DNA of 64,000 bases from Escherichia phage vB_EcoM-Ro157lw. The DNA lies in sequence record MH051335.1. One strand, 5' to 3'. Shown piece after piece: positions 1-64,000 of this stretch. Position numbers and translations under genes: made by a program. A model generated the notes under the pieces. That model ran no database searches. It saw only the letters and a list, made by a program, of their open reading frames with translations, and was not told the origin of the DNA. Position 1 is the first letter of the stretch; each line of letters begins with the position of its first letter.

Positions 1-50
1 TCCAGATTAGCAGTTGTGATAAAGTATTGTTCATGATAACCTCTTTAATT

Positions 51-71
51 CCCTTCCCATATCGGGAAGGG
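51..71 (+). terminator. GC-rich hairpin CCCTTCCC-ATATC-GGGAAGGG followed by A/T-rich tract; possible intrinsic terminator
   Basis: Perfect 8-bp inverted repeat with 5-nt loop read directly; downstream CAAATATTATTTT. Confidence 0.35.
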
Positions 72-229
72 CAAATATTATTTTACGCGAAAGAATAGGC
101 GCGTGCCACACAGCGAGTCCCAACGGCCCTCACCATCCCATATCGACCCAACACCAGCAGCGATTGGTCCAGCAGAATTGGCGGCATTGGCCCAGGCGAG
201 TCGTTTAAGCTTCCAACTGCACCAACGAT

Positions 230-463
230 TCACAGTTCGCCTCCAGACTTCAAAATTAATCCCGCATAGATTATTGCCAGAGCTAAAGGCGCACCGTCGC
301 CAGCCTCTCTATTCTCTTTGATTTGAAGAGTATCTTTTAGGAATTGAAGCTGAACGTTGAATTCATTTTCAATTCCAAGCACTCCAGCTAATCCTTTTAC
401 AGAATCTGCATATGCCTTGTCTATCACTTCTTTTGGCACCGTTAAGGTTAATTCATTTGCCAT
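230..463 (-). CDS. hypothetical protein (77 aa)
   Basis: ORF with GGAG-containing RBS upstream of ATG at 463; no recognisable motif. Confidence 0.4.
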   Translation of the reverse strand: MANELTLTVPKEVIDKAYADSVKGLAGVLGIENEFNVQLQFLKDTLQIKENREAGDGAPLALAIIYAGLILKSGGEL

Positions 464-674
464 TTTCTTTCCACTCCACAAATGTACTGCTACTTGTTTC
501 TCTATTTAGCAGGTATCTGCCGCGCATTCCACGAAGGCTGAATTCAACCGTCGATGGATTAGATTTTGAAAGCCACATCACTTGACCGTCGAACGGTCCG
601 CCAACGCATGTGTATTTGGCCTTTGGCTCACTCCTTTTGGGCCTCTTTGCCCGCTCTTTGATTGATAGTCTCAT
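453..674 (-). CDS. hypothetical basic protein (73 aa)
   Basis: ORF in six-frame track; Lys/Arg-rich N-terminus; overlaps neighbours by a few nt as in an operon. Confidence 0.35.
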   Translation of the reverse strand: MRLSIKERAKRPKRSEPKAKYTCVGGPFDGQVMWLSKSNPSTVEFSLRGMRGRYLLNRETSSSTFVEWKENGK

Positions 675-889
675 CAGTCTTCACCTTGAGATTCAAGACA
701 AGTAAGAACAAGCCACGTCATCGGAAGAATCAAAACCAGAGAAATAAGTGACCAAATGGACCAACACAAGATGACAGACTTGAATGTGTGAACGTCGCCA
801 AACGCAGCAGTGAAACAAAATCCCATTACGAAAGCAATCGCTGTGGAGTGATTATCAATGGCTTTGATGGCGCGGTCGATGAGTTTCAT
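674..889 (-). CDS. small membrane protein with two predicted transmembrane helices and charged C-terminus; holin-like
   Basis: 71 aa; hydrophobic stretches AIAFVMGFCFTAAFG and VILCWSIWSLISLVLILPMTWLVL; acidic C-terminal tail; size and topology as in class II holins. Confidence 0.4.
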   Translation of the reverse strand: MKLIDRAIKAIDNHSTAIAFVMGFCFTAAFGDVHTFKSVILCWSIWSLISLVLILPMTWLVLTCLESQGED

Positions 890-1037
890 ATTACCTCCGG
901 TTTTGAGTTAATATGATTATAATGCAGAATTTCAGAAAGGCAAACTTTTTGTGAATTTAAATTAAAAAAATGGCCAGAAATAATCTGGCCAAAAAGATCA
1001 CCCTTTATCCACTACTAAGCTGGAATCATAATTTTAC

Positions 1038-1067
1038 TTGATATAGCTGTCTCAAGCAAACTATAAT
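1038..1067 (+). promoter_or_regulatory. sigma70-like promoter candidate (TTGATA-18 nt-TATAAT) upstream of terminase gene
   Basis: Hexamers read directly; -10 abuts ATG 1068, so the true start codon may be the in-frame ATG at 1101. Confidence 0.3.
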
Positions 1068-2528
1068 ATGAATAAAATATTAACACATAATTGGAAAGTC
1101 ATGTACCAGTTGAATCCTGCTTTAAGAGAAGTCTGGAAGACGAAAGCGCGATACAAAGTCATATACGGCGGTCGTGCATCTTCCAAATCGCACGATGCCG
1201 CTGGTTTTGCTATTTATTTGGCGGCAAACTTCAAATTAAAATTCCTTTGCGTTCGACAATTCCAGAACAAGATTTCTGAATCAGTATATACGCTATTAAA
1301 AGATAAAATAGAGATTTCTGATTTTAAAGACGAGTTCAACTTATTAAAGAACTCTATTGAACACAAAAGAACAAAATCTGAATTTTTATTTTACGGTATC
1401 GCACGCAACGTTGACGAAATCAAATCAACAGAAGGTGTTGATGTTCTTTGGCTTGAAGAAGCGCATGCACTGACTGAAGAGCAATGGGACATCATTGAGC
1501 CGACAATTCGTAAGGAAGGGTCCGAAATATGGATCATATTTAACCCTGATGAAGAGGCTGATTTTGTCTACCAGAACTTTGTCATGCGACCGCCGAAGAA
1601 TGCCATCGTTAAGAAGATTAACTGGCAGGACAACCCATTCTTGTCGCAAACAATGCTGGATGTTATAGCTGGCATGTATGAGCGCGACCCGAAAAAGGCA
1701 GAACACGTTTATGGCGGAGTACCGAAGACTGGCGGCGACAAGTCGGTCATCAACCGTGCATTTGTCAAGGCCGCGCTAAACCTCCACAAACACCCTACGC
1801 TGGGGTGGAGCTTGTCAGGGTCTAACCGTATAGGCTTCGACGTGGCGGACGACGGCGACGACTTAAACGCCACAGCGTTTGTCACAGGCAACGTATTACG
1901 TGGCATCAAGACATGGGAAGGTCTGGAAGATGAATTGCTTAAGTCCGCAAGCGGAGTTTGGAAAGACGCATTGACATTCGGCGCATCAATCACCTATGAC
2001 GCCATCGGTGTTGGTGCATTTGCTGGTTCAAAATTTGATGAGCTTAATGAGTATGCAATCCATGAAAATCCAACATTCCCAAGAATCGAATTTAATGCGT
2101 TCAACGCGCAAGGTGCTGTTGATGATCCTGATGACGTTTTCCTTGAGTTACCACACGTTGAAATACTCAATAAAGACCATTTCGCAAACATAAAAGCGCA
2201 AAAATGGACTGAGATTGCCGAACGATTCAGAAAGACATATGAGTATGCGACAGGGCAAGCCGTATATCCGACCGATGAGTTGATTTCCATCGACACAGAC
2301 GGCATCCCAGAACTTGGTATTCCCGCTTGGTCTGCCGAAGAAATTGAGACGTTTCTTTTTGAGATGTCAGCACCGCGCAAAGACACGTCTGTTCTTGGTA
2401 AGTTCAAAGTTGAATCGAAAAAAGATATGGCAAAGCGTGGAGTCAAATCGCCTAACAAAGCGGACGCAGCAATCATGGCATTGATGAAACCAATTGTTGC
2501 AGCATCCGGCTTCTTCTCTAACCTTTAA
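1068..2528 (+). CDS. terL: terminase large subunit (ATPase plus nuclease)
   Basis: Walker A-like GGRASSKS near N-terminus, Walker B-like VLWLEEAH, acidic nuclease-type C-terminal half; first gene of the structural module. Alternative start at 1101. Confidence 0.85.
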   Translation: MNKILTHNWKVMYQLNPALREVWKTKARYKVIYGGRASSKSHDAAGFAIYLAANFKLKFLCVRQFQNKISESVYTLLKDKIEISDFKDEFNLLKNSIEHKRTKSEFLFYGIARNVDEIKSTEGVDVLWLEEAHALTEEQWDIIEPTIRKEGSEIWIIFNPDEEADFVYQNFVMRPPKNAIVKKINWQDNPFLSQTMLDVIAGMYERDPKKAEHVYGGVPKTGGDKSVINRAFVKAALNLHKHPTLGWSLSGSNRIGFDVADDGDDLNATAFVTGNVLRGIKTWEGLEDELLKSASGVWKDALTFGASITYDAIGVGAFAGSKFDELNEYAIHENPTFPRIEFNAFNAQGAVDDPDDVFLELPHVEILNKDHFANIKAQKWTEIAERFRKTYEYATGQAVYPTDELISIDTDGIPELGIPAWSAEEIETFLFEMSAPRKDTSVLGKFKVESKKDMAKRGVKSPNKADAAIMALMKPIVAASGFFSNL

Positions 2529-2531
2529 CAA

Positions 2532-2771
2532 TTAAAGCATTCCGTGCTGAAGGTCGAGCTTTCTTGCGGCAAACGACCTGGCACGGAATCGCTTACCCGC
2601 CCTTACTGCCTGTCGAATTTTCTTTTGCAAACACTTACGGTCAAAATCGTTGCGGTCGACGGCTTCGAGTAAATCGCGACGCAGTGCACCCAGTGTCGAC
2701 TTATCGGAGACTTCGACGCCGAGCGCGGCTGCAACATCTTTCAAAACATCGAGTTCGGTTAAAGTTCTCAT
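2532..2771 (-). CDS. hypothetical protein (79 aa) with SAP/HeH-like N-terminus and basic C-terminus
   Basis: ORF antisense to the structural operon; N-terminal LTELDVLKDVAAALGVEVSDKSTLGALRRDL resembles a helix-extension-helix DNA-binding motif. Confidence 0.35.
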   Translation of the reverse strand: MRTLTELDVLKDVAAALGVEVSDKSTLGALRRDLLEAVDRNDFDRKCLQKKIRQAVRAGKRFRARSFAARKLDLQHGML

Positions 2772-3184
2772 TTAATAATCCCCTTGATGTCTGATTCTGC
2801 CATGAAGATTGGAGTGCCGCCGCCAGGAACAATCGAGCGCGTAACTTTGTCAAACATATCGTTTTCTTCAACTTGAATACGATAAAATTTATTTTTGGAT
2901 GAAGATGGGCACAATCCCATAAATTTGCCGATTCCGCGAACGCATTCATCTTCAAAGTATACTGTTTCACCTTGAATGGAGTCGATATTGTCTACTGGAT
3001 AGACTTTGCGACCCAACAACCACTCATCCAAAGTCGCCTGCAAGACGTTTCGCGCATCTAAAATCCACGGGTCAATAGTAGCACCTTCGTATCGCGCAGC
3101 AGTGGCCTTTGCCAGTTCTTCATATTCGCATACGTTAACGACTTCGCCGTTGTGTAGGACGACAAATACAATTGTTGTGCTCAT
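2768..3184 (-). CDS. hypothetical protein (138 aa)
   Basis: ORF with 4-nt ATGA overlap to the downstream gene; AT-rich promoter region upstream at 3185-3313. Confidence 0.45.
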   Translation of the reverse strand: MSTTIVFVVLHNGEVVNVCEYEELAKATAARYEGATIDPWILDARNVLQATLDEWLLGRKVYPVDNIDSIQGETVYFEDECVRGIGKFMGLCPSSSKNKFYRIQVEENDMFDKVTRSIVPGGGTPIFMAESDIKGIIK

Positions 3185-3279
3185 TTCAATCTCCTTTCGT
3201 TTGGTTAACTAAAATATAACTCAAAATGATACAAAAGCAAAATATTTTATGAACTATTTATGATCACCATACATATCAT

Positions 3280-3308
3280 TTGCTTACAAACACATGAATA
3301 TTTATAAT
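3280..3308 (+). promoter_or_regulatory. sigma70-like promoter candidate (TTGCTT-17 nt-TATAAT) upstream of portal gene
   Basis: Hexamers and spacing read directly in a divergent intergenic region. Confidence 0.35.
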
Positions 3309-3346
3309 ATAGATTGATTCCCTTTCACTGTCAGGTGGCGTTAACA

Positions 3347-5722
3347 ATGAAAATTCTTGGCATAAAACTCTGGGAGAAGACGCAACCAGAAGCCGAACCA
3401 GCGGAGATGCCGCCAGGCGACCCATTGGCACCGTTTGAACGCCTTGAAAGGCGCGGCAGCGGTCAACGCTGGGAAAAGACTGAAAGCAATCGACCGACCT
3501 TTAAAACGGTTGATGACTTCCCTTTATATGAGCCTGATATTAATGGCGATGGTGTTGCAATCATAAAAGGTCGTTCAGTCGATTCCGCAACAGTATCCAA
3601 AAAGGTTATGGATAATGCCTTAAAGAACATCAGTTCAGAAGGGCAAGTCAACCCATACACAGTACCTATTCAACTTCAAAACTGGTATTTGTCACAGTCA
3701 TTCATCGGCTATCAAGCTTGCGCAATTATAGCGCAGCACTGGCTGGTGAACAAGGCTTGTTCCATGGTAGGCCGCGATGCGGTCCGTAAAGGCTGGGAAG
3801 TTAAATCCAGTTCTGAGTCAGAATTGTCAGTACAAGCCAGCGAACGCCTAAAGCAAATTGATAAAGAATTTAATATCAAAGAGCACTTAGTTGAAGCCGA
3901 ACGATTCAAAAATATTTTTGGTATCCGCGTCATCATATTTGATGTGCGTAGCGATGACCCAGAATATTACAGCAAGCCTTTTAACATTGATGGTGTGACA
4001 AAGGGGTCTTATAAGGGAATCATTCAGGTTGACCCTTATTGGATGATGCCATTTTTGACGTCTGAAAACACCGCCGACCCTGCATCACAGCACTTCTATG
4101 ATCCAGAATACTGGGTGATCAGTGGACAACGTTATCATCGAAGTCACCTCATCATCTTGCGCAATGATGAGCCAGCTGATATTCTCAAGCCAACTTATAT
4201 TTACGGCGGCATTCCTCTGACTCAGCAGATTTATGAACGCATCTATGCCGCTGAACGTACCGCTAACGAAGCGCCATTGCTGGCGATGTCCAAGCGTACA
4301 ACCACGCTGCGGACCGACGTTGACAAGGCTATTGCCAATGAGCGGTCTTTTGCAGAACGTCTGATGATGTGGATCAAGTACCGCGACAACTATGCAGTCA
4401 AAGTGCTTGGCCAAAAAGAAGAGATGGACCAGTTTGACATCAACTTGTCAGACTTCGACAGCATCATCATGAACCAGTACCAGCTTGTGGCCGCAATCGC
4501 AAAAGTTCCGTCGACCAAACTGCTTGGGACTTCGCCAAAAGGCTTTAACGCCACTGGTGAATTCGAGATGGTCAGCTATCACGAAGAGTTGGAAACGTGC
4601 CAGCAGCATGACCTGACAAAAATTCTCGACCGCCATTACAAAATCCTTCTCAAATCAGAAGGGGTGGATGTCGATGTTAAGGTTGCATGGGAACCAGTTG
4701 GCTCACTTACTGCTACTCAACTTGCAGAAATCAATGATAAGCGAGCCAACACTGGCAAAACTCTTATTGATGCTGGCGTCATTTCTCCTGATGAAGAGCG
4801 CGACCGCATCAAAGACGACAAAAACAGCGGCTACAACCGTCTGCCGGAAGACGCAGCAGAAGAAACCCCAGGGATGTCTCCAGAGAATATGGCATTGCTT
4901 GGCAAGTCTGCTGGTGAAGTCCTGCAAGGTAAGGCCGATATTGAACAGGCGAAAGCTGATGTCGTTAAGATGGGCGGCCAGTTCTATAGCGAAACAGGTA
5001 TTATGCCAGAGGGTGCCGCGCGTGGTGAGTTGGCGGAAAACCCTGACAAGGCGCCTGTCGAAATCAACATGGACGATACCGATGATGAATCAAGCCATCA
5101 GGTTGATGTCCTAACGCAGTTGAAAGAAGGGCTGGAGGGTATTGCGGATTACTACCTGAAAGAAGGTCAGGATGTGGATTTTGACCCTCAAAAAGATTCA
5201 CGGTCGGTGCAACCGTCTACCCTTCCAAGCGTTAAAGGACACGTCGTCAACTTACGCCACAACGTGGGTAAAATGGACGCAGCATCATTACCTAAGATGA
5301 AGTTGCACGGAATGATTCTTGGCATTGAGAATCCGCGAAACAGCATTCGTAGAGGAAACAGCCTTGACGGTGAATGGGCCGTGAAGATGCCGCACCACTA
5401 CGGATTCATCAAGGGCACCAAGGGCGCAGACGGTGATGAAGTCGACTGCTTTGTGGGTCCAAATCTGAAGTCGCCGAAAGTCTTTATCGTGAACCAAAAC
5501 GATAACTACTCTGGCGAGTTTGATGAACACAAGTGTATGCTTGGATTCGATTCAGCAGAAGAAGCGAAAGAAGCTTATCAAGCATCATTTGGTAACGGTT
5601 GGAACGGATTCGACTCAATCCACGAATTAGATGTGAACTCATTCAAGGAGTGGTTGAAGGGTGATTGCTCTCAAGCATACGGAGCACTCAATAATCCTAC
5701 TAATTCACCGAAGCAAGGTTGA
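3347..5722 (+). CDS. portal protein with C-terminal inorganic-pyrophosphatase-like extension
   Basis: About 790 aa immediately after the terminase; RBS AGGTGG before ATG 3347; C-terminal 130 aa carry the DGDEVDC motif matching the family I pyrophosphatase signature. Confidence 0.75.
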   Translation: MKILGIKLWEKTQPEAEPAEMPPGDPLAPFERLERRGSGQRWEKTESNRPTFKTVDDFPLYEPDINGDGVAIIKGRSVDSATVSKKVMDNALKNISSEGQVNPYTVPIQLQNWYLSQSFIGYQACAIIAQHWLVNKACSMVGRDAVRKGWEVKSSSESELSVQASERLKQIDKEFNIKEHLVEAERFKNIFGIRVIIFDVRSDDPEYYSKPFNIDGVTKGSYKGIIQVDPYWMMPFLTSENTADPASQHFYDPEYWVISGQRYHRSHLIILRNDEPADILKPTYIYGGIPLTQQIYERIYAAERTANEAPLLAMSKRTTTLRTDVDKAIANERSFAERLMMWIKYRDNYAVKVLGQKEEMDQFDINLSDFDSIIMNQYQLVAAIAKVPSTKLLGTSPKGFNATGEFEMVSYHEELETCQQHDLTKILDRHYKILLKSEGVDVDVKVAWEPVGSLTATQLAEINDKRANTGKTLIDAGVISPDEERDRIKDDKNSGYNRLPEDAAEETPGMSPENMALLGKSAGEVLQGKADIEQAKADVVKMGGQFYSETGIMPEGAARGELAENPDKAPVEINMDDTDDESSHQVDVLTQLKEGLEGIADYYLKEGQDVDFDPQKDSRSVQPSTLPSVKGHVVNLRHNVGKMDAASLPKMKLHGMILGIENPRNSIRRGNSLDGEWAVKMPHHYGFIKGTKGADGDEVDCFVGPNLKSPKVFIVNQNDNYSGEFDEHKCMLGFDSAEEAKEAYQASFGNGWNGFDSIHELDVNSFKEWLKGDCSQAYGALNNPTNSPKQG

Positions 5723-20972: not shown

Positions 20973-20976
20973 TAAT

Positions 20977-21849: not shown

Positions 21850-21851
21850 AT

Positions 21852-22373: not shown

Positions 22374-22383
22374 AATATTGCTT

Positions 22384-24427: not shown

Positions 24428-24433
24428 GGAACT

Positions 24434-27172: not shown

Positions 27173-27182
27173 AGGAACGGCA

Positions 27183-28970: not shown

Positions 28971-28978
28971 GGTGATTT

Positions 28979-29623
28979 ATGATTAACGCAAACGTAATAT
29001 CTAAAGGGACCGGATGCAGCATGGATGTTGCAGAGAAATGGGTGGACCCTTTCAAGCAGGCTTGTGAGCACTACGGAATCAAAAGCAAGAGTGCCATCGC
29101 GGCATTCCTTGCAAACGTAGGAGTAGAGACAGGCAGCTTGAAAACATTTGTGGAAAATCTCAACTACTCTGCACAGGGTCTTGCCAACACGTGGCCTAGT
29201 CGTTACAGCGTCAACGGTCGCTCTGGAAGTTCCCCGAACTCATTGGCCCTGTCGATTGCCCGTAAACCAATGGAAATCGCCAATAATACATATGCAAACC
29301 GCATGGGAAATGGTTCGGTAGCATCTGGCGACGGCTGGAAGTACCGTGGCCGTGGTGCCATTCAGCTGACTGGCAAGGCGAACTATGCGGAATATACGCG
29401 CCAATCAGGCTATGATGCGTTGAACAATCCTGATATTCTGACTGAACCAAAATACATTGCCGACAGCGCGGCATGGTTCTTTAAGAATAGCGGTTGTATC
29501 CCTCTTGCGGATGCAGGAAATTTTGATTCAACCGTTAAGCGAATTAACGGGGCCGCGCCGAACGCAGCAAACCACGGTGAGTTGCGAAGAAAGCGTTACA
29601 AAGATGCACTAGCAGTTATGTAA
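28979..29623 (+). CDS. endolysin, glycoside hydrolase family 19 (chitinase class I-like)
   Basis: GH19-type motifs including YRGRGAIQLTGKANY and AAFLANVGVETG; no signal peptide. Confidence 0.75.
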   Translation: MINANVISKGTGCSMDVAEKWVDPFKQACEHYGIKSKSAIAAFLANVGVETGSLKTFVENLNYSAQGLANTWPSRYSVNGRSGSSPNSLALSIARKPMEIANNTYANRMGNGSVASGDGWKYRGRGAIQLTGKANYAEYTRQSGYDALNNPDILTEPKYIADSAAWFFKNSGCIPLADAGNFDSTVKRINGAAPNAANHGELRRKRYKDALAVM

Positions 29624-29629
29624 GAAAAA

Positions 29630-29643
29630 GGCCCATATGGGCC
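29630..29643. terminator. bidirectional intrinsic terminator between convergent genes
   Basis: Perfect palindrome GGCCCATATGGGCC flanked by A-run upstream and T-run downstream. Confidence 0.6.
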
Positions 29644-29648
29644 TTTGT

Positions 29649-29879
29649 TTATTTTACGGCTTCAACTTGGACGGGCGGAGCGGAACTTGTATCAATGTCT
29701 GGCAAGTCGAAGTAATACCCCGCCATACCAATCACACCCACAATCGCGGCCCGTGCCACCTTGCTGCTAATTGACTCCCCAATAAGCTTTACCAACAGGG
29801 ATAAGATTTGAGACGTCAAAGCCTTTTTCAGCCTTTTGTTTTCTTCCAAATCTTTCTGCATAACTACCACCCATGTCAA
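29649..29879 (-). CDS. small protein with one C-proximal hydrophobic helix; holin or antiholin candidate
   Basis: 76 aa; AAIVGVIGMAGYYF hydrophobic segment; convergent with the endolysin. Confidence 0.35.
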   Translation of the reverse strand: MTWVVVMQKDLEENKRLKKALTSQILSLLVKLIGESISSKVARAAIVGVIGMAGYYFDLPDIDTSSAPPVQVEAVK

Positions 29880-30418
29880 CGCACTTCCTGTGTCTTAACA
29901 TTACCTGAAGCATCTCTCAAGGGCAGTGGATAGTAGGCCATTTGGTAGTCTGATACGCCTTCAATGTGATAAAACACGATTACGTCTTTGCTGTTGATGA
30001 GCATGTTAACGACATCTGATTTATCTTCTGGAGTGAGTATTAGTGCGCCGCCTGTCCTGCTGTCTACTGCAACAGGGTATGTCTTGTCGACAAGGCCGCT
30101 GTCCAATGTATTATACCTGACAACGATTTCAGGGGCATCAACTTTTGCCATTGACATTCCGAACACAAACGACACTACTTGTCGACCGCGATCATTCATT
30201 ACGCACATCTTTTCTTTGTCAAATCTTTCTTTTATTACGTCGTATTTGTTCCAGCAGAACTCAAAGGATTGCCCATTGTTGAAATATCTTGTCAAAACTT
30301 TTGCACTTCCATTCGGCGGCGTAAACATATTTTCAGCCGATGCAGTCTTGGTGAAGAATATAACTGTCAGCATAGCCATGATGATGATCAAAACAATCTT
30401 TAATTTGTTCGCTTTCAT
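29876..30418 (-). CDS. secreted or membrane-anchored protein (180 aa) with N-terminal signal sequence
   Basis: N-terminus MKANKLKIVLIIIMAMLTVIFFTKTASA (basic n-region, hydrophobic core, ASA cleavage-like site). Confidence 0.5.
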   Translation of the reverse strand: MKANKLKIVLIIIMAMLTVIFFTKTASAENMFTPPNGSAKVLTRYFNNGQSFEFCWNKYDVIKERFDKEKMCVMNDRGRQVVSFVFGMSMAKVDAPEIVVRYNTLDSGLVDKTYPVAVDSRTGGALILTPEDKSDVVNMLINSKDVIVFYHIEGVSDYQMAYYPLPLRDASGNVKTQEVR

Positions 30419-44942: not shown

Positions 44943-45782
44943 TTATTCCGCTTGATCACCGTCTTCGGCATCTTCGTTGGATTCAACATCGACAAACTCG
45001 ATGTGGCCCATCTCTTCCAGCTTGCTCAGGTAGGAGCGAACGGAAGCGCCAAACAGTTGATCTTTAACTTTTTCGCCCAGCTCATCGATAGACTGCGCCA
45101 CGCCAACTTCGCCTTCTTTGATCGCCGCCAGAACGCGTCCACGGGTGGAATGCTCTTGCGGCTGGCTCAGGCCATTGCCAGTGTAGATGAAGTGGGTTGC
45201 TTTTGCGCGACGCTGACCGTTTGCCTTTTTAGCAGCCTTACGTTCTGCGATGGCTTTGCGACGTTCTTCAGCTTCTTTCTTACGCTGTTCTTTCTGCTTT
45301 TCTGCAGCTTCTTTAGCCGCAATCTTAGCAGCTTCACGCTCTGCCTTGCGTTTCGCTTTAGCTTCTTCTTTGGCCTTCTCTTTTTCGGCCTTCGCTGCAG
45401 CACGGGCTTGATCACGCTCTGCTTTCTTAGCAGCAGCTTGTTCAGCTTTCAGGCGCTTGGCTTCTTCTTTGGCCTTTGCCTTTTCGATTTCTTTTGCTGC
45501 TTTAGCGGCTTCACGCTCTGCTTTCTTAGCAGCTGCTTTTTCTGCACGCTCTTTGGCTTTCTTCGCTGCTTCTTCAGCACGTTTCTGTGCTTTCTCATCA
45601 GCGGCCTGCTTGCGTTTCAGTGCAGCTTCTTCACGCTTGGCTTGTTTTTCCTGCTCACGCTTCTGGCGTTTTTCTTCGGCTTCTTTCTTTTTAGCCAGGC
45701 GTTTTTCTTCAGCCACGCGACGACGTTCTGCTGCAGCTGCTTGTTTTTCTTCTTTAGATAATACTTTGATTGCTTCGGCCAT
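44943..45782 (-). CDS. Lys/Ala/Glu-rich low-complexity protein with small globular C-terminal domain
   Basis: About 200 residues of KxAExxAK-type repeats, then about 80 non-repetitive C-terminal residues. Confidence 0.5.
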   Translation of the reverse strand: MAEAIKVLSKEEKQAAAAERRRVAEEKRLAKKKEAEEKRQKREQEKQAKREEAALKRKQAADEKAQKRAEEAAKKAKERAEKAAAKKAEREAAKAAKEIEKAKAKEEAKRLKAEQAAAKKAERDQARAAAKAEKEKAKEEAKAKRKAEREAAKIAAKEAAEKQKEQRKKEAEERRKAIAERKAAKKANGQRRAKATHFIYTGNGLSQPQEHSTRGRVLAAIKEGEVGVAQSIDELGEKVKDQLFGASVRSYLSKLEEMGHIEFVDVESNEDAEDGDQAE

Positions 45783-45941
45783 ATTCACAGTCCTTAAATA
45801 AATTAGTTTATTTTATATTCCCCGTTTGGGATAACTTAATTATGCCTTCAGTCGCCGCCAGTAGCAACTAAAAACTCTGGCGGCAATGCCACTTTAATTA
45901 AACTGATTTTCAGTTTTATTTTTCGTAAATTTACGTCAACA

Positions 45942-47126
45942 TTAACGCGCTTTCAAATCACGGTACACAGTCAGATTCTTCTTAGCGCGGGTAATAGCTG
46001 TATACATCATCTTGGCATACGGAACGCCGCGCAAGATTTCTTCCAGCACGCACACATTGTCCCACTCGCTGCCTTGAGATTTGTGCACCGTTATGACATA
46101 GCCATAGTCCATTCCTCCAACAGCGCGTTGGGCCTCTTTGCGCACTTCCTGATCAGTAGAGAAGGAAAGAGGATTTATCTTAACCTTTATATCTTTGCCA
46201 TCGGTAAGCGAGCGCAAATTTACATACATTATTTCATTGGACTCATCTTCATCCCTTTCAAAGTCCGGTACTGGCTCATAACTAATAACAATCCCTTGCT
46301 CGCCATTACAGAATCCTGGACCGTGTTGGTTGAATGTACAAATAACTTTCTCGCCGATTCCTGGCATTGGCGTTATACGTCCGCTCACTTGTCGCAATAA
46401 TGAATTCCATTTATCTTTAGTGCTATTATATGAGCAAATAATTTGATCATCTTCGCCCATGAATTTCTTCAGTGCGGTAACGCGCGGCGATTCAGCCAAC
46501 ACCTTTACGTCATCGTATTCACGCGGAGGAAGTCGGTTGCCCTGTCGCACGAAGAAGGAAGCGCGGATTATGTTGGACTCTTTTCCCTGCCGCATGATTT
46601 CGGTTAACAGTACGTCAACGGCATCTTCAGTAAAGTAGGCGGCGGCTTTTACCGGAGGGACTTGCCCAATGTCGCCTAATGCCAGCACAGGGATGCGGTG
46701 ATCAAGAAGGCGCTCTGTGTCCCACTCGCCAACCATTGAAGCTTCATCAAGGACTACAAGATGCGGCTTTTCGTCCAGCTTTGACTTTCTCGAAAATATT
46801 GGCTCATTGTCGTCATTTACGCCGCGAACGTTATAGATGAACTGGTGAAGGGTCTTCGCGCCACGACACCCTTTCTGCTTCAATCGGCTGGCGGCCTTTC
46901 CGGTCGGCGCAATATAAATGGCACCGTACTCACCGACACAACGGCGCACAATCTCACGCGCAATAGAGGTTTTACCTGTTCCTGCATAGCCAGCGATGAA
47001 AAACACGCGCTTCGTCGTTTTACCGTCCTGCAATCGCTTGTACCATGCAACGGCCTTTTCGATGGCATCAATCTGTTGCGCGTTAAACTGAATCGCTGGC
47101 TCATTATTAAATTCTGGAATGTTCAT
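45942..47126 (-). CDS. SF1 DNA helicase (Dda/RecD-like)
   Basis: Walker A AGYAGTGKT, Walker B VLDEASM, VITVHKSQGSEWDNV and YTAITRAK motifs. Confidence 0.75.
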   Translation of the reverse strand: MNIPEFNNEPAIQFNAQQIDAIEKAVAWYKRLQDGKTTKRVFFIAGYAGTGKTSIAREIVRRCVGEYGAIYIAPTGKAASRLKQKGCRGAKTLHQFIYNVRGVNDDNEPIFSRKSKLDEKPHLVVLDEASMVGEWDTERLLDHRIPVLALGDIGQVPPVKAAAYFTEDAVDVLLTEIMRQGKESNIIRASFFVRQGNRLPPREYDDVKVLAESPRVTALKKFMGEDDQIICSYNSTKDKWNSLLRQVSGRITPMPGIGEKVICTFNQHGPGFCNGEQGIVISYEPVPDFERDEDESNEIMYVNLRSLTDGKDIKVKINPLSFSTDQEVRKEAQRAVGGMDYGYVITVHKSQGSEWDNVCVLEEILRGVPYAKMMYTAITRAKKNLTVYRDLKAR

Positions 47127-60240: not shown

Positions 60241-60600
60241 ATACGCGTAAAATACGGCTAAAAATTAAGCGTATCATGGCTGCAGGCCGCGCCGTTCCTG
60301 GATTCATCCTTTCCAAATTGGTACACCCTTACGTCATGATACGTCATGGTTTTTTATCCGTATCAGTGTACAGCCCTTGCCGCGCCTGGCTTGTACATTA
60401 ATCTTACGGATGATACGGATAAAACTGGGCATCGTTATATATATAATTTGAAAAATTAATTAACTCCATTTTGAATTAATTTAAATTAATTTTTTCTACA
60501 TCCTCATACTTATGTTAATTTATATATTTAACGTATTATCCGTAAGATATAAGTAAAAACAAAGACTTGCGGCAATACGGATGATACGTCATGATACGCT
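60241..60600. repeat. second iteron-like region: ATCCGTATCA-family repeats flanking an AT-rich core
   Basis: TTATCCGTATCAG, CTTACGGATGATACGGATAAAA, TTATCCGTAAG, ATACGGATGATACGTCATGATACG read directly; AT-rich core 60431-60520. Confidence 0.7.
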
Positions 60601-60826
60601 TCAACCAGCCAGCAGCGGCTAAGTCATTGATTTGCATAACACGCGGCGAAAGGGATGGATTTCTTTTATACGTATCAAACAGTACACCAAGCACCACGGT
60701 CCGCTATTCATTAAGCATTGTGATTTATGTACGTTTACAGCCAATTTGAACATCAATCTGCACTTGAATATAATGTTCAATCATTGTATAATTCACACTA
60801 TTAATTTGCACTATGGGATTTGCACT

Positions 60827-61300
60827 ATGAGTCAAGATTATGTAGCAATGCCTGAAGACTTTGAAGACCCGCGATTTGCAGAGCATAATCAGGCATTATT
60901 CGATGAGTTCATTGACCTTGTTATTCAGGGCCATGACATGCGCGCAGCTTTTGCACTAGTATTTGGCATGGAGGTTGCGACCGATAACTACACTGGCCAG
61001 CGAATCCTCTGCACGCAACGCAATCCGTACTACAAGATGCGCTACAAAAAGCGTATGGAAGAGATGCCATTGAAGGAATTGTGGAGCGTAAAGAGTTCCA
61101 TCCACAATTTAGTGAAGCTTGTGCGTGATCCAGAAGTCGCGGCATCAGCCAAGCTTAATGCCATTCGTGAACTGAATATCATCTACGGCATTACGATGAT
61201 TGATGAAAACGGCAATAGTAAAATGGGCCGTTCCATGGATGATTTCTACAAGGATTTTGGAGAGGCGGCCAAAGAGGGTGAGCAATTCTCCCGCCACTAG
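60827..61300 (+). CDS. hypothetical protein (157 aa); start codon lies inside an ATTTGCACTATG motif
   Basis: ATG 60827 in frame of ORF 60632-61300; no conventional RBS spacing. Confidence 0.4.
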   Translation: MSQDYVAMPEDFEDPRFAEHNQALFDEFIDLVIQGHDMRAAFALVFGMEVATDNYTGQRILCTQRNPYYKMRYKKRMEEMPLKELWSVKSSIHNLVKLVRDPEVAASAKLNAIRELNIIYGITMIDENGNSKMGRSMDDFYKDFGEAAKEGEQFSRH

Positions 61301-61319
61301 CCAATTTGCACTATAAAAC

Positions 61320-61353
61320 GGCCCTAGAACACATTTTCTCCACTTCTAGGGCC
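61320..61353 (+). other. stem-loop GGCCCTAGA...TCTAGGGCC (9-bp stem, 16-nt loop)
   Basis: Perfect inverted repeat directly after the stop at 61300; no U-tract. Confidence 0.3.
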
Positions 61354-61728
61354 ATCGGTAATACGACGGGGAAGGCTGCAACCATAAACGCGTTAGAAAG
61401 TGTATTATTATAAGTCATCTTTTAGTCACTTTACGTAACAATTTACGACCTTCAGCCGTCCAGTCGAACGACTCCACCAGCAGATTTGCACTATAACCTA
61501 AGACGATGCGCCCTTTCTCGTTATCAACCCGCCAACAAGTCTCGAATAGCATTCGATTTGCACTATTAACTATCGCCGCAGCGCGCGTTGGGTAAGCGCA
61601 ATTTGCACTATGGTCGTAAAGGGATAAGGTGCGACCACTTCCGATGGACAACGTAGCGATGAGAATAAGCGTATTCATAAGCCACCAATTTGCACTATGA
61701 AAAGCGACCCCGAAGGGCCGCCATTCGA

Positions 61729-62355
61729 TTAGATGATCTGGAAGGTGTAGGACTTGTTGCCGAACTCAAAGTTTAAGCGCCCAGCTTCCTTGAGCTTCAT
61801 ACGGAAGCGAATGTGCTTGCTATCCGGTAAGCCCAGCGCGGCGAACGCTACGCGGACTGATTTGAACTCGCCTACACCCTCGACCATAACGGCGTTACGC
61901 GTGAGACGCTTTTGCGCCACTTCCTTGTTATCCCAACTTTTTGCAATACCTTCGCTATTCGAACGGCGATGGGAAGGACTGGCAATTTTATCCGCGCCAA
62001 CCGGAGTATCATTCAGGCCGCTCTTGACGAATGCTTCATACTCTTCGTCGGTCATCGCGTCGAGTTCTTCCTGAGTCGGCTCGGCCTTTTTAACGACCGC
62101 ACGCGCCTTATGCGTTTTTACATCGCTGGACACTTCCTCGCACGGCTTCGCGTCTGGAATGGGCGATTCGTTGGACGGCTCATCGAGCGCGTTTAAGGAC
62201 TCGATTAACGCGATGACGCGAGTCTCAGCGGTGCGACGGTCCGCAAACTTCTTAATCGGTTTTGAGCCGGAGTTAGCGTTATAGAACGCAACGAGGTCGG
62301 CGGTCTTAGTTGCGATAACGTCGCCGCTAGTAGAGAAACGATTCAAGCTAACCAT
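61729..62355 (-). CDS. hypothetical protein (208 aa)
   Basis: RBS AGGAG upstream on the minus strand; divergent from the downstream plus-strand genes. Confidence 0.45.
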   Translation of the reverse strand: MVSLNRFSTSGDVIATKTADLVAFYNANSGSKPIKKFADRRTAETRVIALIESLNALDEPSNESPIPDAKPCEEVSSDVKTHKARAVVKKAEPTQEELDAMTDEEYEAFVKSGLNDTPVGADKIASPSHRRSNSEGIAKSWDNKEVAQKRLTRNAVMVEGVGEFKSVRVAFAALGLPDSKHIRFRMKLKEAGRLNFEFGNKSYTFQII

Positions 62356-62496
62356 AATAAACTCCTAGTTTGGGAGCGGCGTTAACGACCTATTCGCTAA
62401 CTCATCCCGTCCCGATATGAGTACATTATAATATAGTGTAGAAAAAAGTAAAGCACTTTTTCGATAAAAATGCGATAAATTATTTTATCTTTTTTC

Positions 62497-62524
62497 TTTA
62501 CTTCTTCGTACACTCGCGTATACT
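62497..62524 (+). promoter_or_regulatory. sigma70-like promoter (TTTACT-16 nt-TATACT), copy 1 of a duplicated promoter-leader module
   Basis: Shares TTCGTACACT spacer core and downstream TTTATATCGAGA with the copy at 62894-62922. Confidence 0.4.
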
Positions 62525-62579
62525 TGTTTATATCGAGACGGGCGATGGCCTTCCTTCTACTAGCATCGGGAGCTTTATT

Positions 62580-62882
62580 ATGACTACTTTAATCTCTTCC
62601 ATCCTTACTTACGACGAAGACCGTTTAACCGTTCGCTCTCTTATCGCCGCCGTTAACGCGGAACTAGAATCCAGCGCCATTAAGGTCCGCGCGGTCGCCT
62701 TCGTCGGCCTCTCCTTCGACGAAATTAAATACGCCGAACGTAGCGCCATCCGCTTCGCGAAGACCGACGACGAAGCCGTCACCCTTATCGAGACGGTTAC
62801 GCCGCGCGACGAAGCGTTAATTATCGTCGAGTATATCGACGTAGAAGGCGATAATGCTTATAAATATTTTATCGCAAAATAA
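62580..62882 (+). CDS. hypothetical protein (100 aa)
   Basis: RBS GGGAG; CG-dinucleotide-rich codon usage distinct from the upstream genome. Confidence 0.45.
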   Translation: MTTLISSILTYDEDRLTVRSLIAAVNAELESSAIKVRAVAFVGLSFDEIKYAERSAIRFAKTDDEAVTLIETVTPRDEALIIVEYIDVEGDNAYKYFIAK

Positions 62883-62893
62883 CGAAAAAGTGC

Positions 62894-62922
62894 TTTACTT
62901 ATTCGTACACTAAGACTATAAT
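62894..62922 (+). promoter_or_regulatory. sigma70-like promoter (TTTACT-17 nt-TATAAT), copy 2
   Basis: Hexamers read directly; same flanking sequence as copy 1. Confidence 0.4.
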
Positions 62923-62989
62923 GTTTTATATCGAGAGGGGATGAGGTAGCGAATAGGTCGCTACCCTCCCGACTAACTAGGAGAATATT

Positions 62990-63280
62990 ATGATTACTTT
63001 ATCCGCTATCCGTTCCGCTCGCGTCGAAACTTCCGAAAACTCTAACGTATTTGGCGAAACCTTAGAGAGCGTTTATCTCTCTAACGTAGACGCGATTATC
63101 GAGTCTATTTATGAGCCGATCAACTTTCTCGACCTTTACAAGTATCGCGACGAGGACATCGTATCCTACCGCGTAACGATTAACGGCTTCGTCTATACGA
63201 TTACCGAAATCGGCGGCGAATATATCGCTGTACCGCAACTCGGCGGCGAAGTAACTTACTTTAAAATCGTAAGCCTTTAA
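62990..63280 (+). CDS. hypothetical protein (96 aa)
   Basis: RBS AGGAG; same leader architecture as 62580-62882. Confidence 0.45.
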   Translation: MITLSAIRSARVETSENSNVFGETLESVYLSNVDAIIESIYEPINFLDLYKYRDEDIVSYRVTINGFVYTITEIGGEYIAVPQLGGEVTYFKIVSL

Positions 63281-63291
63281 GGAGAAGAAAG

Positions 63292-63501
63292 ATGACTAAT
63301 ATGAATAACTCTCTTAACGCGCGCGCCCATCGCACCGCCGTAATCGATATGTTTCGCGAGCTTAAGGAATTATGCGATAATATGAACGCGATGTTATCCA
63401 TCGGCGGCTGGGGATACGAAGAAGAAGTTAAATACGCGGTTATGCGTCGCCGTCGCGATAACGTCCTTGGGCAAATTAAACGCGCCGGATTATTCCTTTA
63501 A
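63292..63501 (+). CDS. hypothetical protein (69 aa)
   Basis: RBS AAGGAG; terminator follows. Confidence 0.4.
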   Translation: MTNMNNSLNARAHRTAVIDMFRELKELCDNMNAMLSIGGWGYEEEVKYAVMRRRRDNVLGQIKRAGLFL

Positions 63502-63527
63502 TTATAATCACCCACCGTTACTAATAG

Positions 63528-63550
63528 GCCGCGCTTAGTCGCGGCTTTTC
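63528..63550 (+). terminator. intrinsic terminator (GCCGCG-CTTAGT-CGCGGC then TTTTCTTCG)
   Basis: 6-bp GC stem plus U-rich tract read directly. Confidence 0.5.
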
Positions 63551-63671
63551 TTCGTCCCTATCTCGATGCGCTTCTCCTCGAAAACTCCTTTATCCTTCCC
63601 TTCTTCGTCGCATAATCTTCGTCGAGATGCGCCTTAGTTCGCATAACAGGTATTACGTTAAATGGAGAACA

Positions 63672-63745
63672 TCGCGTAAGTCGTTGTTTTATATAGACAC
63701 CTATATCGGAACGTTAAGGCGGGTCGCGTAAGTCGTTGTTTTATA
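63672..63745 (+). repeat. two direct copies of TCGCGTAAGTCGTTGTTTTATA spaced 52 bp apart in a non-coding stretch
   Basis: Copies at 63672-63693 and 63724-63745; a further direct repeat AATCATTCGCTTTC occurs at 63871 and 63916. Confidence 0.6.
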
Positions 63746-64000
63746 AAGGCGCAAAACTTTCCCTTCGTTCCGAACTAAAACGAGAAATATGCCGACCCTT
63801 CGCCCGAAAATAGTACGCATGCGAAATTACCGACATCTAGAATAATCCCCACCGATATTATTCTGCGCGCAATCATTCGCTTTCGAACTATTATGCTTCA
63901 TATTATTATGCGTCGAATCATTCGCTTTCTAATTGTAACGCTGGAAACTGTAACGGCGATTGATTATTGCGTTCGTGTGGTTTTTAGGGCATGGGTCTTT

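What the first reader, a model, noticed from the sequence alone, without database searches (positions are those of the whole stretch)
62400..64000. Compositionally distinct distal region with duplicated promoter-leader modules and direct repeats
From about 62.4 kb the codon usage becomes conspicuously CG-dinucleotide-rich, unlike the rest of the window. Two small genes are each preceded by a near-identical unit: TTTACT, a spacer containing TTCGTACACT, TATA(A/C)T, then TTTATATCGAGA(C/G)GGG and a GGAG ribosome-binding site. The last 500 bp are non-coding with direct repeats. This may be a horizontally acquired early module or the region near a genome terminus.
Basis: partly seen in the sequence, partly recalled or inferred. 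Interest (0 to 1): 0.5.

Follow-up and report, generated by a model that had tools for sequence, protein, structure and literature searches.

The report
CA/TG-free early module in terminal repeat
The last 2.2 kb of this E. coli phage (Wifcevirus) window form the outer half of the genome's 3.5-kb terminal repeat: a small early-gene cassette with three near-identical host-type promoters, whose DNA is almost free of the dinucleotides CA and TG, a conserved bias I found no description of and cannot explain.

Summary
G+C content does not change. What changes is dinucleotide use. From about 61.8 kb, most strongly 62.3-63.98 kb, CA and TG fall to observed/expected 0.2-0.5, against 1.19 elsewhere. CG (about 2.1) and TA (about 1.2-1.4) replace them.

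The window is a Wifcevirus myophage, 97% identical to ECML-117. Position 64000 is the right physical end of the genome, and the direct terminal repeat (DTR) is 60468-64000.

There are three promoter-leader units, not two; the third, on the minus strand, drives a 208-aa gene. Two leaders carry a hairpin with an invariant AAUAGGU loop. The terminal 450 bp are non-coding and hold two pairs of direct repeats.

The bias is tied to position, not inherited from a donor:
- It reaches synonymous sites (z -4 to -7) and amino-acid content.
- A gene shared with Klebsiella phages has been recoded here.
- Serratia phages (Myosmarvirus), only 30-45% identical in protein, have the same island, promoters and hairpin at the same place in their DTR.
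- Pbunavirus, a Salmonella relative and the SPO1 repeat lack it.

My best reading is a T5-like pre-early module. Restriction-site content fits published phenotypes. Why CA/TG is purged remains unknown.

The parts
60468..64000 (.). Direct terminal repeat (DTR), 3533 bp. Position 64000 is the right physical end of the virion DNA.
   Evidence: Position 1 of the Mansfield DTR aligns to 60468. The Mansfield DTR 1..3673 (PhageTerm annotation) and the WFH DTR 1..3701 = 67583..71283 both end at the base aligned to 64000. Korf 2019 (PMC6563267) reports a terminal repeat of about 3.7 kb.
61800..63975 (.). Island depleted in CA/TG and enriched in CG/TA. The core is 62300-63550, with a shoulder through the 208-aa gene. 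The last 25 bp of the genome are normal again.
61729..62355 (-). g208, a 208-aa protein of unknown function (PHROG 4730). It is a core gene shared with Pbunavirus, Myosmarvirus and Xanthomonas phage Carpasina.
   Evidence: CA+TG 54 against 77.2 expected from synonymous resampling, z -4.1.
62425..62452 (-). Promoter of unit 3: TTTACT-N16-TATAAT, reading leftward into g208.
62382..62400 (-). Leader hairpin of unit 3: UUAGCG-AAUAGGU-CGUUAA.
62497..62524 (+). Promoter of unit 1: TTTACT-N16-TATACT. The leader runs 62525-62579, with GGGAG at 62568-62572, and has no conserved hairpin.
62580..62882 (+). P1, 100 aa. Found only in Wifcevirus. It has no Cys, Trp, His or Gln and no internal Met.
   Evidence: 8 CA+TG against 35.9 +/- 4.2 expected, z -6.7
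62894..62922 (+). Promoter of unit 2: TTTACT-N17-TATAAT.
62945..62965 (+). Leader hairpin of unit 2: GGUAGCG-AAUAGGU-CGCUACC. The whole leader folds at -21.3 kcal/mol, z -2.9.
62990..63280 (+). P2, 96 aa, acidic. It belongs to a small family with a paralogue in other Wifcevirus genomes (Mansfield gp005) and a member in the Serratia phage island.
   Evidence: 8 CA+TG against 32.7 +/- 4.1 expected, z -6.0
63292..63501 (+). P3, 69 aa (PHROG 10377, annotated 'transcriptional regulator'). It is an accessory gene, present in 8 Wifcevirus-type records (7 Escherichia, 1 Shigella), with homologues in about 310 Webervirus records.
   Evidence: z -5.4; Webervirus homologue z +1.0
63526..63547 (+). Intrinsic terminator closing the P1-P2-P3 unit.
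   Evidence: A terminator is annotated at the same place in Mansfield and WFH.
63672..63748 (+). Direct repeat pair TCGCGTAAGTCGTTGTTTTATA(T/A)AG: 63672-63696 and 63724-63748.
63855..63942 (+). Direct repeat pair of 43 nt, 79% identical: 63855-63897 and 63900-63942.
60827..61300 (+). Small terminase subunit gene, in the inner half of the DTR with normal composition.
   Evidence: Mansfield annotation. 35% identical to MTx gp001. Synonymous-resampling z +2.1.
60804..61698 (+). Seven exact direct copies of ATTTGCACTAT flanking terS. The motif occurs only in the DTR.

Best explanation
What is shown. The region is the terS-distal half of the 3.53-kb direct terminal repeat of a Wifcevirus, and it runs to within 25 bp of the right physical end of the genome. 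It is a compact expression cassette. Three near-identical sigma-70-type promoter-leader units sit back to back. One reads leftward into the 208-aa gene. Two read rightward into P1 and into P2-P3, ending at an intrinsic terminator. About 450 bp of repeat-bearing non-coding DNA then lead to the terminus. Two of the leaders begin with a stable hairpin whose loop, AAUAGGU, is invariant while the stem changes by compensatory substitutions. The whole cassette has lost the CA:TG base-pair step at synonymous sites, between codons, in leaders and in non-coding DNA. It has lost it even at the cost of amino acids: P1 and P2 lack Cys, Trp and His and have at most one Gln and no internal Met.

What I infer.
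(1) This is an immediate-early ('pre-early') module. Unmodified host RNA polymerase transcribes it as soon as the DNA enters the cell.
(2) It works like the first-step-transfer region of T5. The DTR end carrying the island acts first and supplies functions that make the rest of the genome insensitive to restriction. Only systems with sites inside this stretch can then restrict the phage.
(3) The CA/TG purge is maintained by selection on the double-stranded DNA of this segment. The selecting agent is unknown. The candidate I favour is a nuclease or DNA-binding factor, from the host or made early by the phage, that needs a CA:TG step, so that the module is invisible to it.

Rough probabilities: DTR end and host-promoter cassette 0.9; early expression 0.75; T5-like 'acts first and confers protection' logic 0.45; purge maintained by selection rather than by origin or mutation 0.8; nuclease or binding-factor avoidance as the agent 0.3.
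For: Terminus and DTR.

Promoters: the TTTACT-N16/17-TATA(A/C)T pattern is found 4 times against 0.04 expected, three of them here, with 9-10 of 12 consensus matches. The Pbunavirus orthologue of g208 is annotated as a unit with its own predicted sigma-70 promoter between terminators.

Conservation across genera. Serratia phages WR01, MyoSmar and MTx carry TTTACT-N17-TATAAT. WR01 (and MTx) continue with TTATATCGAAACGGG; in MyoSmar the leader has diverged. They also have the same hairpin loop on a different stem, a g208 paralogue (37% identical, E 7e-29) and a P2-family gene. All of these lie in a CA/TG-poor island (o/e 0.03-0.5) in the terS-distal part of their DTR.

Selection that depends on position. 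Synonymous-resampling z values are P1 -6.7, P2 -6.0, P3 -5.4, g208 -4.1 and terS +2.1. The Webervirus homologue of P3 gives +1.0. C/W/H/Q/M make up 1-2% of P1 and P2 against 10.5% in the background. All eight trinucleotide classes containing CA/TG are depleted to 0.10-0.39 in three lineages; the one exception is ATG/CAT in Wifcevirus, at 0.67. No specific k-mer explains the bias.

The T5-like logic. [quoted passage not shown] The DTRs of the window, Mansfield, WFH and ECML-117 have 0 EcoRI, 0 EcoRV, 0 EcoAI-type and 0-1 EcoKI sites, but 4-7 EcoP1I sites in both orientations. Bas101, one of the phages BASEL phenotyped, shows the same pattern: a single EcoKI site and five EcoP1I sites. In T5-like phages, sensitivity likewise depends on sites lying in the FST repeat (PMC10644984).
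Against: No transcript, injection or terminus-polarity data exist for these phages. Early timing and 'first in' are inferred by analogy.

The expected numbers of EcoRI, EcoRV, EcoKI and EcoAI sites in 3.5 kb are small, about 1.4, 0.7, 0.2 and 0.2. The joint probability of seeing no EcoRI and no EcoRV site is about 0.12, so the match to phenotype is suggestive and no more. I could not find the EcoCFT_II recognition site, so that comparison could not be made.

No island protein has a recognisable function. Pfam, NCBIfam and PDB sequence searches gave nothing, and the AlphaFold models had pLDDT 43-49. There are no homologues of T5 A1, A2 or dmp.

In Wifcevirus two of the three promoters point towards the terminus, which does not fit a T7-like transcription-driven entry.

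Depletion is weaker in the terminal non-coding DNA (o/e about 0.5) than in P1 and P2 (0.13-0.27). This leaves room for a contribution at the RNA or expression level.

No known factor has CA:TG-step specificity.
Confidence: 0.6

Rival explanations
1. The cassette was acquired horizontally and still shows its donor's composition.
For: The composition is sharply atypical. P1 and P2 are genus-restricted ORFans. P3 is patchily distributed and shared with Webervirus.
Against: g208 is a core gene of the Wifcevirus/Pbunavirus/Myosmarvirus group, yet it is depleted here (z -4.1) and fully depleted when it lies inside the Serratia island. Its long paralogue outside that island is normal. The Webervirus homologue of P3 has normal CA/TG, so P3 was recoded after arrival. 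The bias persists across 30-45% protein identity, where synonymous sites are saturated, so it must be actively maintained. No donor with this composition turned up in about 200 kb of controls.
Confidence: 0.06
2. The bias comes from local mutation or repair, for example biased correction of heteroduplexes formed when terminal repeats recombine or are duplicated during packaging. Selection plays no part.
For: The island lies inside the DTR, which is the substrate for concatemer formation. The T5 DTR is also compositionally distinct from its flank (CpG 1.31 against 0.79).
Against: Only the terS-distal half of the DTR is affected in both genera. The terS half is normal or even CA/TG-rich. Turning CA/TG into both CG and TA requires transitions in opposite directions at both positions, so no single bias does it. 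Amino-acid content is reshaped. The SPO1 13-kb repeat shows no shift, and the T5 shift does not involve CA/TG.
Confidence: 0.1
3. Selection acts on the early mRNAs. They would avoid UG and CA to escape a host or phage endoribonuclease, or to suppress internal starts (AUG, GUG and UUG all contain UG), or to tune translation.
For: Depletion is strongest in the P1 and P2 reading frames and weaker beyond the terminator. All bacterial start codons and UGA contain UG.
Against: CA and TG are depleted about equally on the sense strand of genes on both strands. Depletion also occurs at codon boundaries, in leaders and in untranscribed-looking DNA downstream of the terminator, where o/e is about 0.5. 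An RNA factor would have to recognise two unrelated dinucleotides, whereas a factor acting on duplex DNA would need only the single CA:TG step. UA, the classic labile RNA step, is enriched rather than avoided.
Confidence: 0.15
4. The purge is ordinary restriction-site avoidance in the DNA that enters first.
For: The DTR lacks EcoRI, EcoRV, EcoAI, Dcm and EcoP15I-type sites in the island. The T5 precedent applies.
Against: By simple enumeration, only 16 of 64 six-base palindromes and 2 of 16 four-base palindromes contain CA or TG, so the purge is an inefficient way to avoid sites. TCGA, CGCG, TTAA and CTAG-type sequences are enriched. GAATTC occurs 4-5 times in each Serratia phage island against about 0.9 expected.
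Confidence: 0.08

Closest known systems
[quoted passage not shown]
   Same: Both lie in a kilobase-scale direct terminal repeat. Both have small pre-early genes in two oppositely oriented units with strong host-type promoters, followed by non-coding DNA rich in repeats at the edge (PMC10644984; T5 record). The T5 repeat is also compositionally distinct from its flank (CpG o/e 1.31 against 0.79, switching at the repeat boundary). The restriction phenotype tracks sites inside the repeat, and the Wifcevirus data fit the same rule.
   Different: The island is 2.2 kb within a 3.5-kb repeat, against about 10 kb in T5. No gene is homologous to A1, A2 or dmp. T5 shows no CA/TG depletion (0.94 against 0.99). 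Two-step transfer has not been shown for Wifcevirus. The Wifcevirus repeat also carries terS.
SPO1 host-takeover module in the 13-kb terminal redundancy
   Same: Many small genes, each with its own strong early promoter and ribosome-binding site, lie inside a terminal repeat. This is from my own knowledge of Stewart et al.; the gene layout is.
   Different: It infects a different host and has no homology. Its dinucleotide content is the same as in the adjacent unique DNA (CG 0.49 against 0.44, CA 1.08 against 1.05).
T7 class I early region (A1-A3 promoters at the end that enters first)
   Same: Host-polymerase promoters lie within about 1-2 kb of a genome end and drive anti-restriction and takeover genes (from my own knowledge).
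   Different: The T7 repeat is 160 bp. All its early promoters point inward and pull the DNA into the cell. Here two of the three point outward.
Restriction-site (short palindrome) avoidance in phage genomes
   Same: Selection acts at the DNA level and overrides codon choice.
   Different: Here the avoided unit is a single dinucleotide step rather than a 4-8 bp site. It is confined to 2 kb and is accompanied by enrichment of many palindromes.
Leading regions of conjugative plasmids (anti-defence genes in the first DNA to enter)
   Same: The concept is the same: the first DNA to enter carries early-expressed counter-defence genes (from my own knowledge).
   Different: Those enter as single-stranded DNA and use special promoters. 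No dinucleotide purge has been described for them.

Membership tests
Wifcevirus direct terminal repeat | The same sequence is present at both ends of a full-length genome record. | tested here: met
   WFH 1..3701 = 67583..71283. The window aligns to it at 94-97% identity, and its last bases are identical to the end of the WFH record.
Wifcevirus direct terminal repeat | The boundaries are supported by read-based terminus calling. | not testable with these tools
   No reads are available. I relied on the PhageTerm annotation in the Mansfield record (1..3673) and on Korf 2019.
Sigma-70 (host RNA polymerase) promoter | -35 and -10 hexamers close to TTGACA/TATAAT with a 16-18 nt spacer. | tested here: met
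   TTTACT-N16/17-TATAAT or TATACT, matching 9-10 of 12 positions. The pattern is found 4 times against 0.04 expected.
Sigma-70 (host RNA polymerase) promoter | A mapped transcription start that depends on host polymerase. | not testable with these tools
   I found no transcript data for Wifcevirus or Myosmarvirus.
T5-type first-step-transfer / pre-early region | It lies in the long terminal repeat and has divergent host-promoter units. | tested here: met
   for T5
T5-type first-step-transfer / pre-early region | Homologues of A1, A2 or dmp are present. | tested here: not met
   No island protein matches any functional family.
T5-type first-step-transfer / pre-early region | Restriction works only when sites lie inside the region. 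| tested here: inconclusive
   The pattern fits: 0 EcoRI, EcoRV and EcoAI sites, at most 1 EcoKI site, and 4-7 EcoP1I sites in the DTR, while only EcoP1_I restricts. Expected counts are small and the EcoCFT_II site is unknown to me.
T5-type first-step-transfer / pre-early region | DNA entry pauses after this segment (two-step transfer, injection stop signal). | not testable with these tools
   This needs an infection experiment.
Horizontally acquired genomic island | The composition matches the donor or homologues elsewhere. | tested here: not met
   The Webervirus homologue of P3 and the g208 homologues in Pbunavirus and Salmonella phage have normal CA/TG.
Known RNA family (for the leader hairpin) | A match to an Rfam covariance model. 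| tested here: not met
   The only match is a chance-level NsiR4 hit at the terminator (E 0.86).

The most novel reading that the evidence does not exclude
The CA:TG step is purged because the first DNA to act in the cell must be invisible to an agent with dinucleotide-level specificity. One candidate is an unrecognised host defence. A more intriguing one is the phage's own early host-DNA-destroying or DNA-silencing activity. In that case the cassette would be self-immune 'stealth DNA' that lets the phage attack every other piece of DNA in the cell before the rest of its genome arrives. That would be a new way for a virus to tell self from non-self without modifying its DNA. It might also bear on the old question of how T5 first-step-transfer DNA survives T5-induced host DNA degradation.
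Probability: 0.2. Interest if true: 0.85.

Novelty: new variant of a known kind. Interest (0 to 1): 0.62.

Why it matters
Terminal-repeat early modules are known from T5 and SPO1, and the Wifcevirus repeat itself has been published. I found no description of three things: the near-total removal of one base-pair step from 2 kb of DNA, its conservation at the same repeat position in two genera, and the shared promoter and hairpin architecture.

Such strong, localised, sequence-independent selection implies that some factor reads CA:TG steps, or CG/TA steps, on the earliest-acting phage DNA. Identifying that factor could reveal a new defence or counter-defence principle. It could also explain why Wifcevirus phages resist almost all tested restriction systems with no known protection mechanism.

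The idea is directly testable, because an in vitro assembly platform for a Wifcevirus genome already exists (PMC11074155).

Tried and rejected
Protein function. PHROG, Pfam, NCBIfam and PDB sequence searches on P1, P2, P3, g208, orf87 and terS gave only unnamed PHROGs and a 'transcriptional regulator' label for P3. A five-member g208 profile searched against PDB and Pfam gave nothing. AlphaFold models of P2 (8-sequence alignment, pLDDT 48.8) and g208 (single sequence, pLDDT 42.8) were too poor for fold search. The big-database searches returned only near-identical Wifcevirus proteins.

RNA. No Rfam family matched. A public-collection scan for TATAAT-N14-30-GCGAATAGGTCGC found only Wifcevirus and Myosmarvirus contigs. 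Of three other metagenome contigs, I read one (L019) and it was a chance match in high-GC DNA. I did not read L022 and L023.

Repeated motif as the cause of the bias. This is rejected: no 4-6-mer that occurs more than a few times exceeds a Markov-1 expectation by z > 5.5.

Generality. There is no island in Pbunavirus LMA2 20-66.5 kb (minimum 0.61-0.64). There is none within 7 kb of the g208-like gene of Salmonella phage PCSE1 or in the SPO1 terminal redundancy. The T5 FST region is CpG- and GpC-enriched but not CA/TG-poor.

A second CpG-rich spot at 7.5-8.0 kb turned out to be a cluster of ACGGATGATACG repeats with normal CA/TG, so it is a different phenomenon.

Literature. Searches on Wifcevirus, vB_Eco4M-7, dinucleotide bias in phage early genes, Pbunavirus transcriptomes and T5 FST composition found no description of the island.

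The EcoCFT_II recognition site could not be recovered from the BASEL papers or supplements. Six one-base variants of AGACC fit the published site counts.

Technical note. When one call or turn fetched several loci, only the first was copied to the scripting area, and some loci fetched singly (L012) never appeared. E217, Bas101, SP13 and KLPN1 were therefore read through other tools or by pasting sequence.
Full report
Identity and context. The window is a Wifcevirus, a myophage of about 68 kb that infects E. coli and Shigella. Bases 61300-64000 match 28 phage records, 26 of them over at least 80% of the query. The best match is ECML-117 at 97.2%. Two annotated relatives place the region. The Mansfield record carries a PhageTerm-predicted direct terminal repeat (DTR) at 1..3673. 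The WFH record contains both copies, 1..3701 and 67583..71283. Korf et al. reported 'a terminal repeat of about 3.7 kb' for WFC and WFH (PMC6563267). The match of the window to both records stops exactly at their DTR ends, and the last bases of the WFH record (...GCGTTCGTGTGGTTTTTAGGGCATGGGTCTTT) are the last bases of the window. The first base of the Mansfield DTR aligns to window 60468. The DTR is therefore 60468-64000, and position 64000 is the right physical end of the genome. The finding lies wholly inside the DTR.

Checking the composition. G+C does not change (0.45-0.47). CpG o/e rises to 2.0-2.4, against 1.10 +/- 0.13 elsewhere. CA and TG collapse to 0.43 and 0.50, from 1.17. CG (1.99 against 1.10) and TA (1.18 against 0.65) take their place, while the other twelve dinucleotides hardly move. 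CA+TG number 1-6 per 100 nt through most of 62301-63800 (8 in two bins), against 14.6 +/- 2.6 (minimum 7) in the first 60 kb. The bias has a shoulder across the 208-aa gene (61729-62355, o/e about 0.7). Its core covers the intergenic promoters, P1 and P2 (0.13-0.45). It is weaker in the terminal non-coding DNA (about 0.5) and ends 25 bp from the terminus. In relatives whose records continue past the DTR, composition returns to normal within about 100 bp of the DTR boundary (Mansfield and ECML-117). No comparable window occurs in the remaining 60.4 kb (minimum 0.84) or in about 200 kb of control phage DNA (minimum 0.61).

Nature of the bias. Every trinucleotide class containing CA or TG is depleted (0.13-0.39 of the genome frequency). 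ATG/CAT is less so (0.67), partly because start codons are retained. CAG/CTG is lowest. No 4-6-mer occurring more than a few times stands out above a first-order expectation, so this is a dinucleotide-step bias rather than a repeated site. I resampled synonymous codons using the phage's own codon usage. P1 should then carry 35.9 +/- 4.2 CA+TG but has 8 (z -6.7). P2 has 8 against 32.7 (z -6.0), P3 has 13 against 29.7 (z -5.4), and g208 has 54 against 77.2 (z -4.1). terS, in the inner half of the DTR, is at +2.1. The depletion is also seen at codon boundaries and reaches the protein level. Cys, Trp, His, Gln and Met together make up 1-2% of P1 and P2, against 10.5% in the phage's long ORFs. Both CA and TG are lost on the sense strand of genes on both strands, and non-coding DNA is affected too. 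The simplest target of the selection is therefore the CA:TG step of duplex DNA.

Position, not origin. g208 is a core gene with orthologues in about 300 Pbunavirus records and in Serratia and Xanthomonas phages. P1 and P2 occur only in the 28 Wifcevirus records. P3 occurs in 8 of them and in about 310 Webervirus (Klebsiella) phages. The Webervirus copy of P3 has ordinary CA/TG content (35 observed, 31.6 expected, z +1.0), so the Wifcevirus copy has been recoded in place.

The decisive comparison is with the Serratia phages of genus Myosmarvirus. WR01, MyoSmar and MTx have a 1.8-2.0 kb island with CA o/e 0.03-0.4, TG 0.1-0.5, CG 1.5-2.8 and TA 1.1-1.7. It holds a g208 paralogue (37% identical, E 7e-29) and a P2-family gene (about 31% identical to the Wifcevirus paralogue gp005). 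A second, longer g208 paralogue outside the island has normal composition. At this divergence synonymous sites are saturated, so the bias must be continually maintained.

The architecture is collinear in the two genera: DTR boundary A, then terS (35% identical, E 3e-30), then small genes, then the island, then boundary B. In both genera the island abuts the boundary far from terS, within 25 bp in Wifcevirus and 150-250 bp in Myosmarvirus. The inner half of the DTR is normal, or even CA/TG-rich.

The island is absent from several relatives and analogues. Pbunavirus LMA2 (20-66.5 kb, minimum 0.61-0.64) lacks it. So does the neighbourhood of the g208-like gene of Salmonella phage PCSE1, and so does the SPO1 terminal redundancy. 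The T5 first-step-transfer repeat is compositionally distinct from its flank (CpG 1.31 against 0.79, GpC 1.52 against 1.07, switching at the repeat boundary), but it is not CA/TG-poor.

Promoter-leader units. A third copy lies on the minus strand (62452-62425, followed by ATATCGGGACGGG) and drives g208. It is 88-89% identical to unit 2 over about 85 nt (inverted repeats I1 and I2). The pattern occurs 4 times in 64 kb against 0.04 expected, and three of the four are here. The -35 element is TTTACT rather than TTGACA, so even the promoters avoid TG and CA.

Units 2 and 3 encode a leader hairpin near the 5' end with the loop AAUAGGU. Three different stems carry the same loop:
- GGUAGCG/CGCUACC in unit 2;
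- UUA(A/G)CG/CGUUAA in unit 3;
- CGGGCG/CGCCCG in Myosmarvirus.

These are compensatory changes. The leaders fold at -17.6 to -21.3 kcal/mol (z -1.3 to -2.9), while unit 1 has no such structure. Myosmarvirus has the same TTTACT-N17-TATAAT. WR01 and MTx continue with TTATATCGAAACGGG, whereas the MyoSmar leader has diverged. There is no Rfam match. A scan of viral contigs for the -10 element plus the hairpin core found only these two genera. Of three other metagenome contigs it returned, I read one, which was a chance hit, and left two unread. The hairpin could stabilise the mRNA or bind a regulator; I could not tell which.

The terminal non-coding DNA. After the terminator at 63526-63547 no ORF reaches 60 aa. 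Two direct-repeat pairs are present, 25 nt at 96% and 43 nt at 79%, and both are conserved in ECML-117 and WFH. Arrays of short repeats next to terminal repeats are familiar from T7 and T5 (from my own knowledge). Their role here, whether in packaging, end protection or replication, is open.

How it probably works. The layout most resembles the pre-early region of T5 and BF23: strong host-type promoters in divergent units, very small genes, a position in a terminal repeat next to a physical end, and repeat-rich non-coding DNA at the edge. [quoted passage not shown] Yet their genomes carry 18-19 EcoRI, 3-4 EcoRV, 5 EcoKI and 3-4 EcoCFT_I sites (S2 table). Tequintaviruses behave the same way unless sites lie in the first-step-transfer repeat (PMC10644984).

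I counted sites in the DTR. There are none for EcoRI, EcoRV or EcoAI/EcoCFT_I, and at most one for EcoKI. Type I enzymes need two sites on linear DNA. There are four to seven EcoP1I sites, in both orientations, in the window, Mansfield, WFH and ECML-117, and five in Bas101, one of the phages BASEL phenotyped. This fits a model in which the DTR acts first and makes the rest of the genome refractory. The expected counts are small, however (EcoRI 1.4, EcoRV 0.7), and I could not recover the EcoCFT_II site. I treat this as suggestive support and no more.

Why CA/TG is purged I cannot say. General restriction avoidance fails. Only a quarter of six-base palindromes contain CA or TG, many palindromes are enriched in the island, and the Serratia islands are rich in EcoRI sites. 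A donor signature and a simple mutation bias are both unlikely, for the reasons set out under the rival explanations. I favour selection against a factor, from the host or made early by the phage, that needs a CA:TG step on duplex DNA. That step of the argument is inference.

Verdict. The terminus reading is right, and the horizontal-acquisition reading is not supported. The DTR was already known. The early cassette is a new variant of the T5/SPO1 kind. Its CA/TG-free state, conserved across two genera and strong enough to reshape proteins, appears to be undescribed in the literature I could search and remains unexplained.

Noticed in passing
window 60804-61698 (+): There are seven exact direct copies of ATTTGCACTAT, all on one strand, flanking terS. 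Two tandem copies overlap the terS start codon. Every Wifcevirus DTR I checked has 7-8 copies, and Mansfield 9.4-59 kb has none. They are candidates for terminase or regulator binding sites.
   Followed up: partly
window 7696-7954 and 60406-60588: ACGGATGATACG occurs 9 times (0-1 mismatch), and only in these two clusters. The copies form inverted pairs around very AT-rich cores. The left DTR boundary (60468) falls inside the second core. The arrangement looks like an origin or a packaging or cleavage site, and it accounts for a local CpG peak at 7.5-8.0 kb.
   Followed up: partly
window 62382-62400 (-) and 62945-62965 (+); L007 10209-10231; L010 895-917: A 5'-leader hairpin has an invariant AAUAGGU loop and three different, compensating stems across two phage genera. 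It matches no Rfam family.
   Followed up: partly
L014 (T5, NC_005859) 1-10219 versus 10220-30000: The T5 first-step-transfer terminal repeat is enriched in CpG (1.31 against 0.79) and GpC (1.52 against 1.07). The switch comes at the repeat boundary. CA/TG is unchanged. I found no mention of this in the papers I searched.
   Followed up: partly
L001 3699 and 3796; L003 8590 and 8687 (just outside the DTR, beyond the window end): Two copies of AAATTTGCAGTACACT lie in the unique DNA immediately after the right DTR boundary. They share GTACACT with the spacers of the early promoters.
   Followed up: no
Mansfield record 48.3-53.1 kb (L011 38956-43684); window about 36-41 kb by synteny: Annotated genes form a cluster: ThyX, a HAD phosphatase, a short-chain dehydrogenase, a glyoxalase-family protein and a UDP-galactopyranose-mutase-like protein. 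They could act in nucleotide or DNA modification, which may bear on the unexplained restriction resistance of these phages.
   Followed up: no
window 45001-46000: GpC o/e is 2.01 and AT skew is -0.41, both outliers for the window. I did not examine this stretch.
   Followed up: no
window 62460-62490: TTCGATAAAAATGCGATAAATTATTTT lies between the divergent promoters. It resembles the high-affinity H-NS site tCGATAAATT, which I recall from memory and did not test.
   Followed up: no
L007 9450-11200; L010 200-2000: The Serratia phage islands hold 4-5 EcoRI sites each, against about 0.9 expected. The Wifcevirus DTR has none.
   Followed up: partly
L010 1-150 (MyoSmar left end): The first 150 nt of the Myosmarvirus DTR, ahead of the island, are a C- and CA-rich tract (CCACCACAATCCACCTCCAACACCC...). 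This is the opposite of the island's bias.
   Followed up: no
one search hit list: Many public assemblies yield g208 on contigs of 2-4 kb alongside contigs of about 68 kb. This is consistent with the DTR assembling separately because of its double coverage. Wifcevirus genomes are common in E. coli sequencing runs.
   Followed up: no
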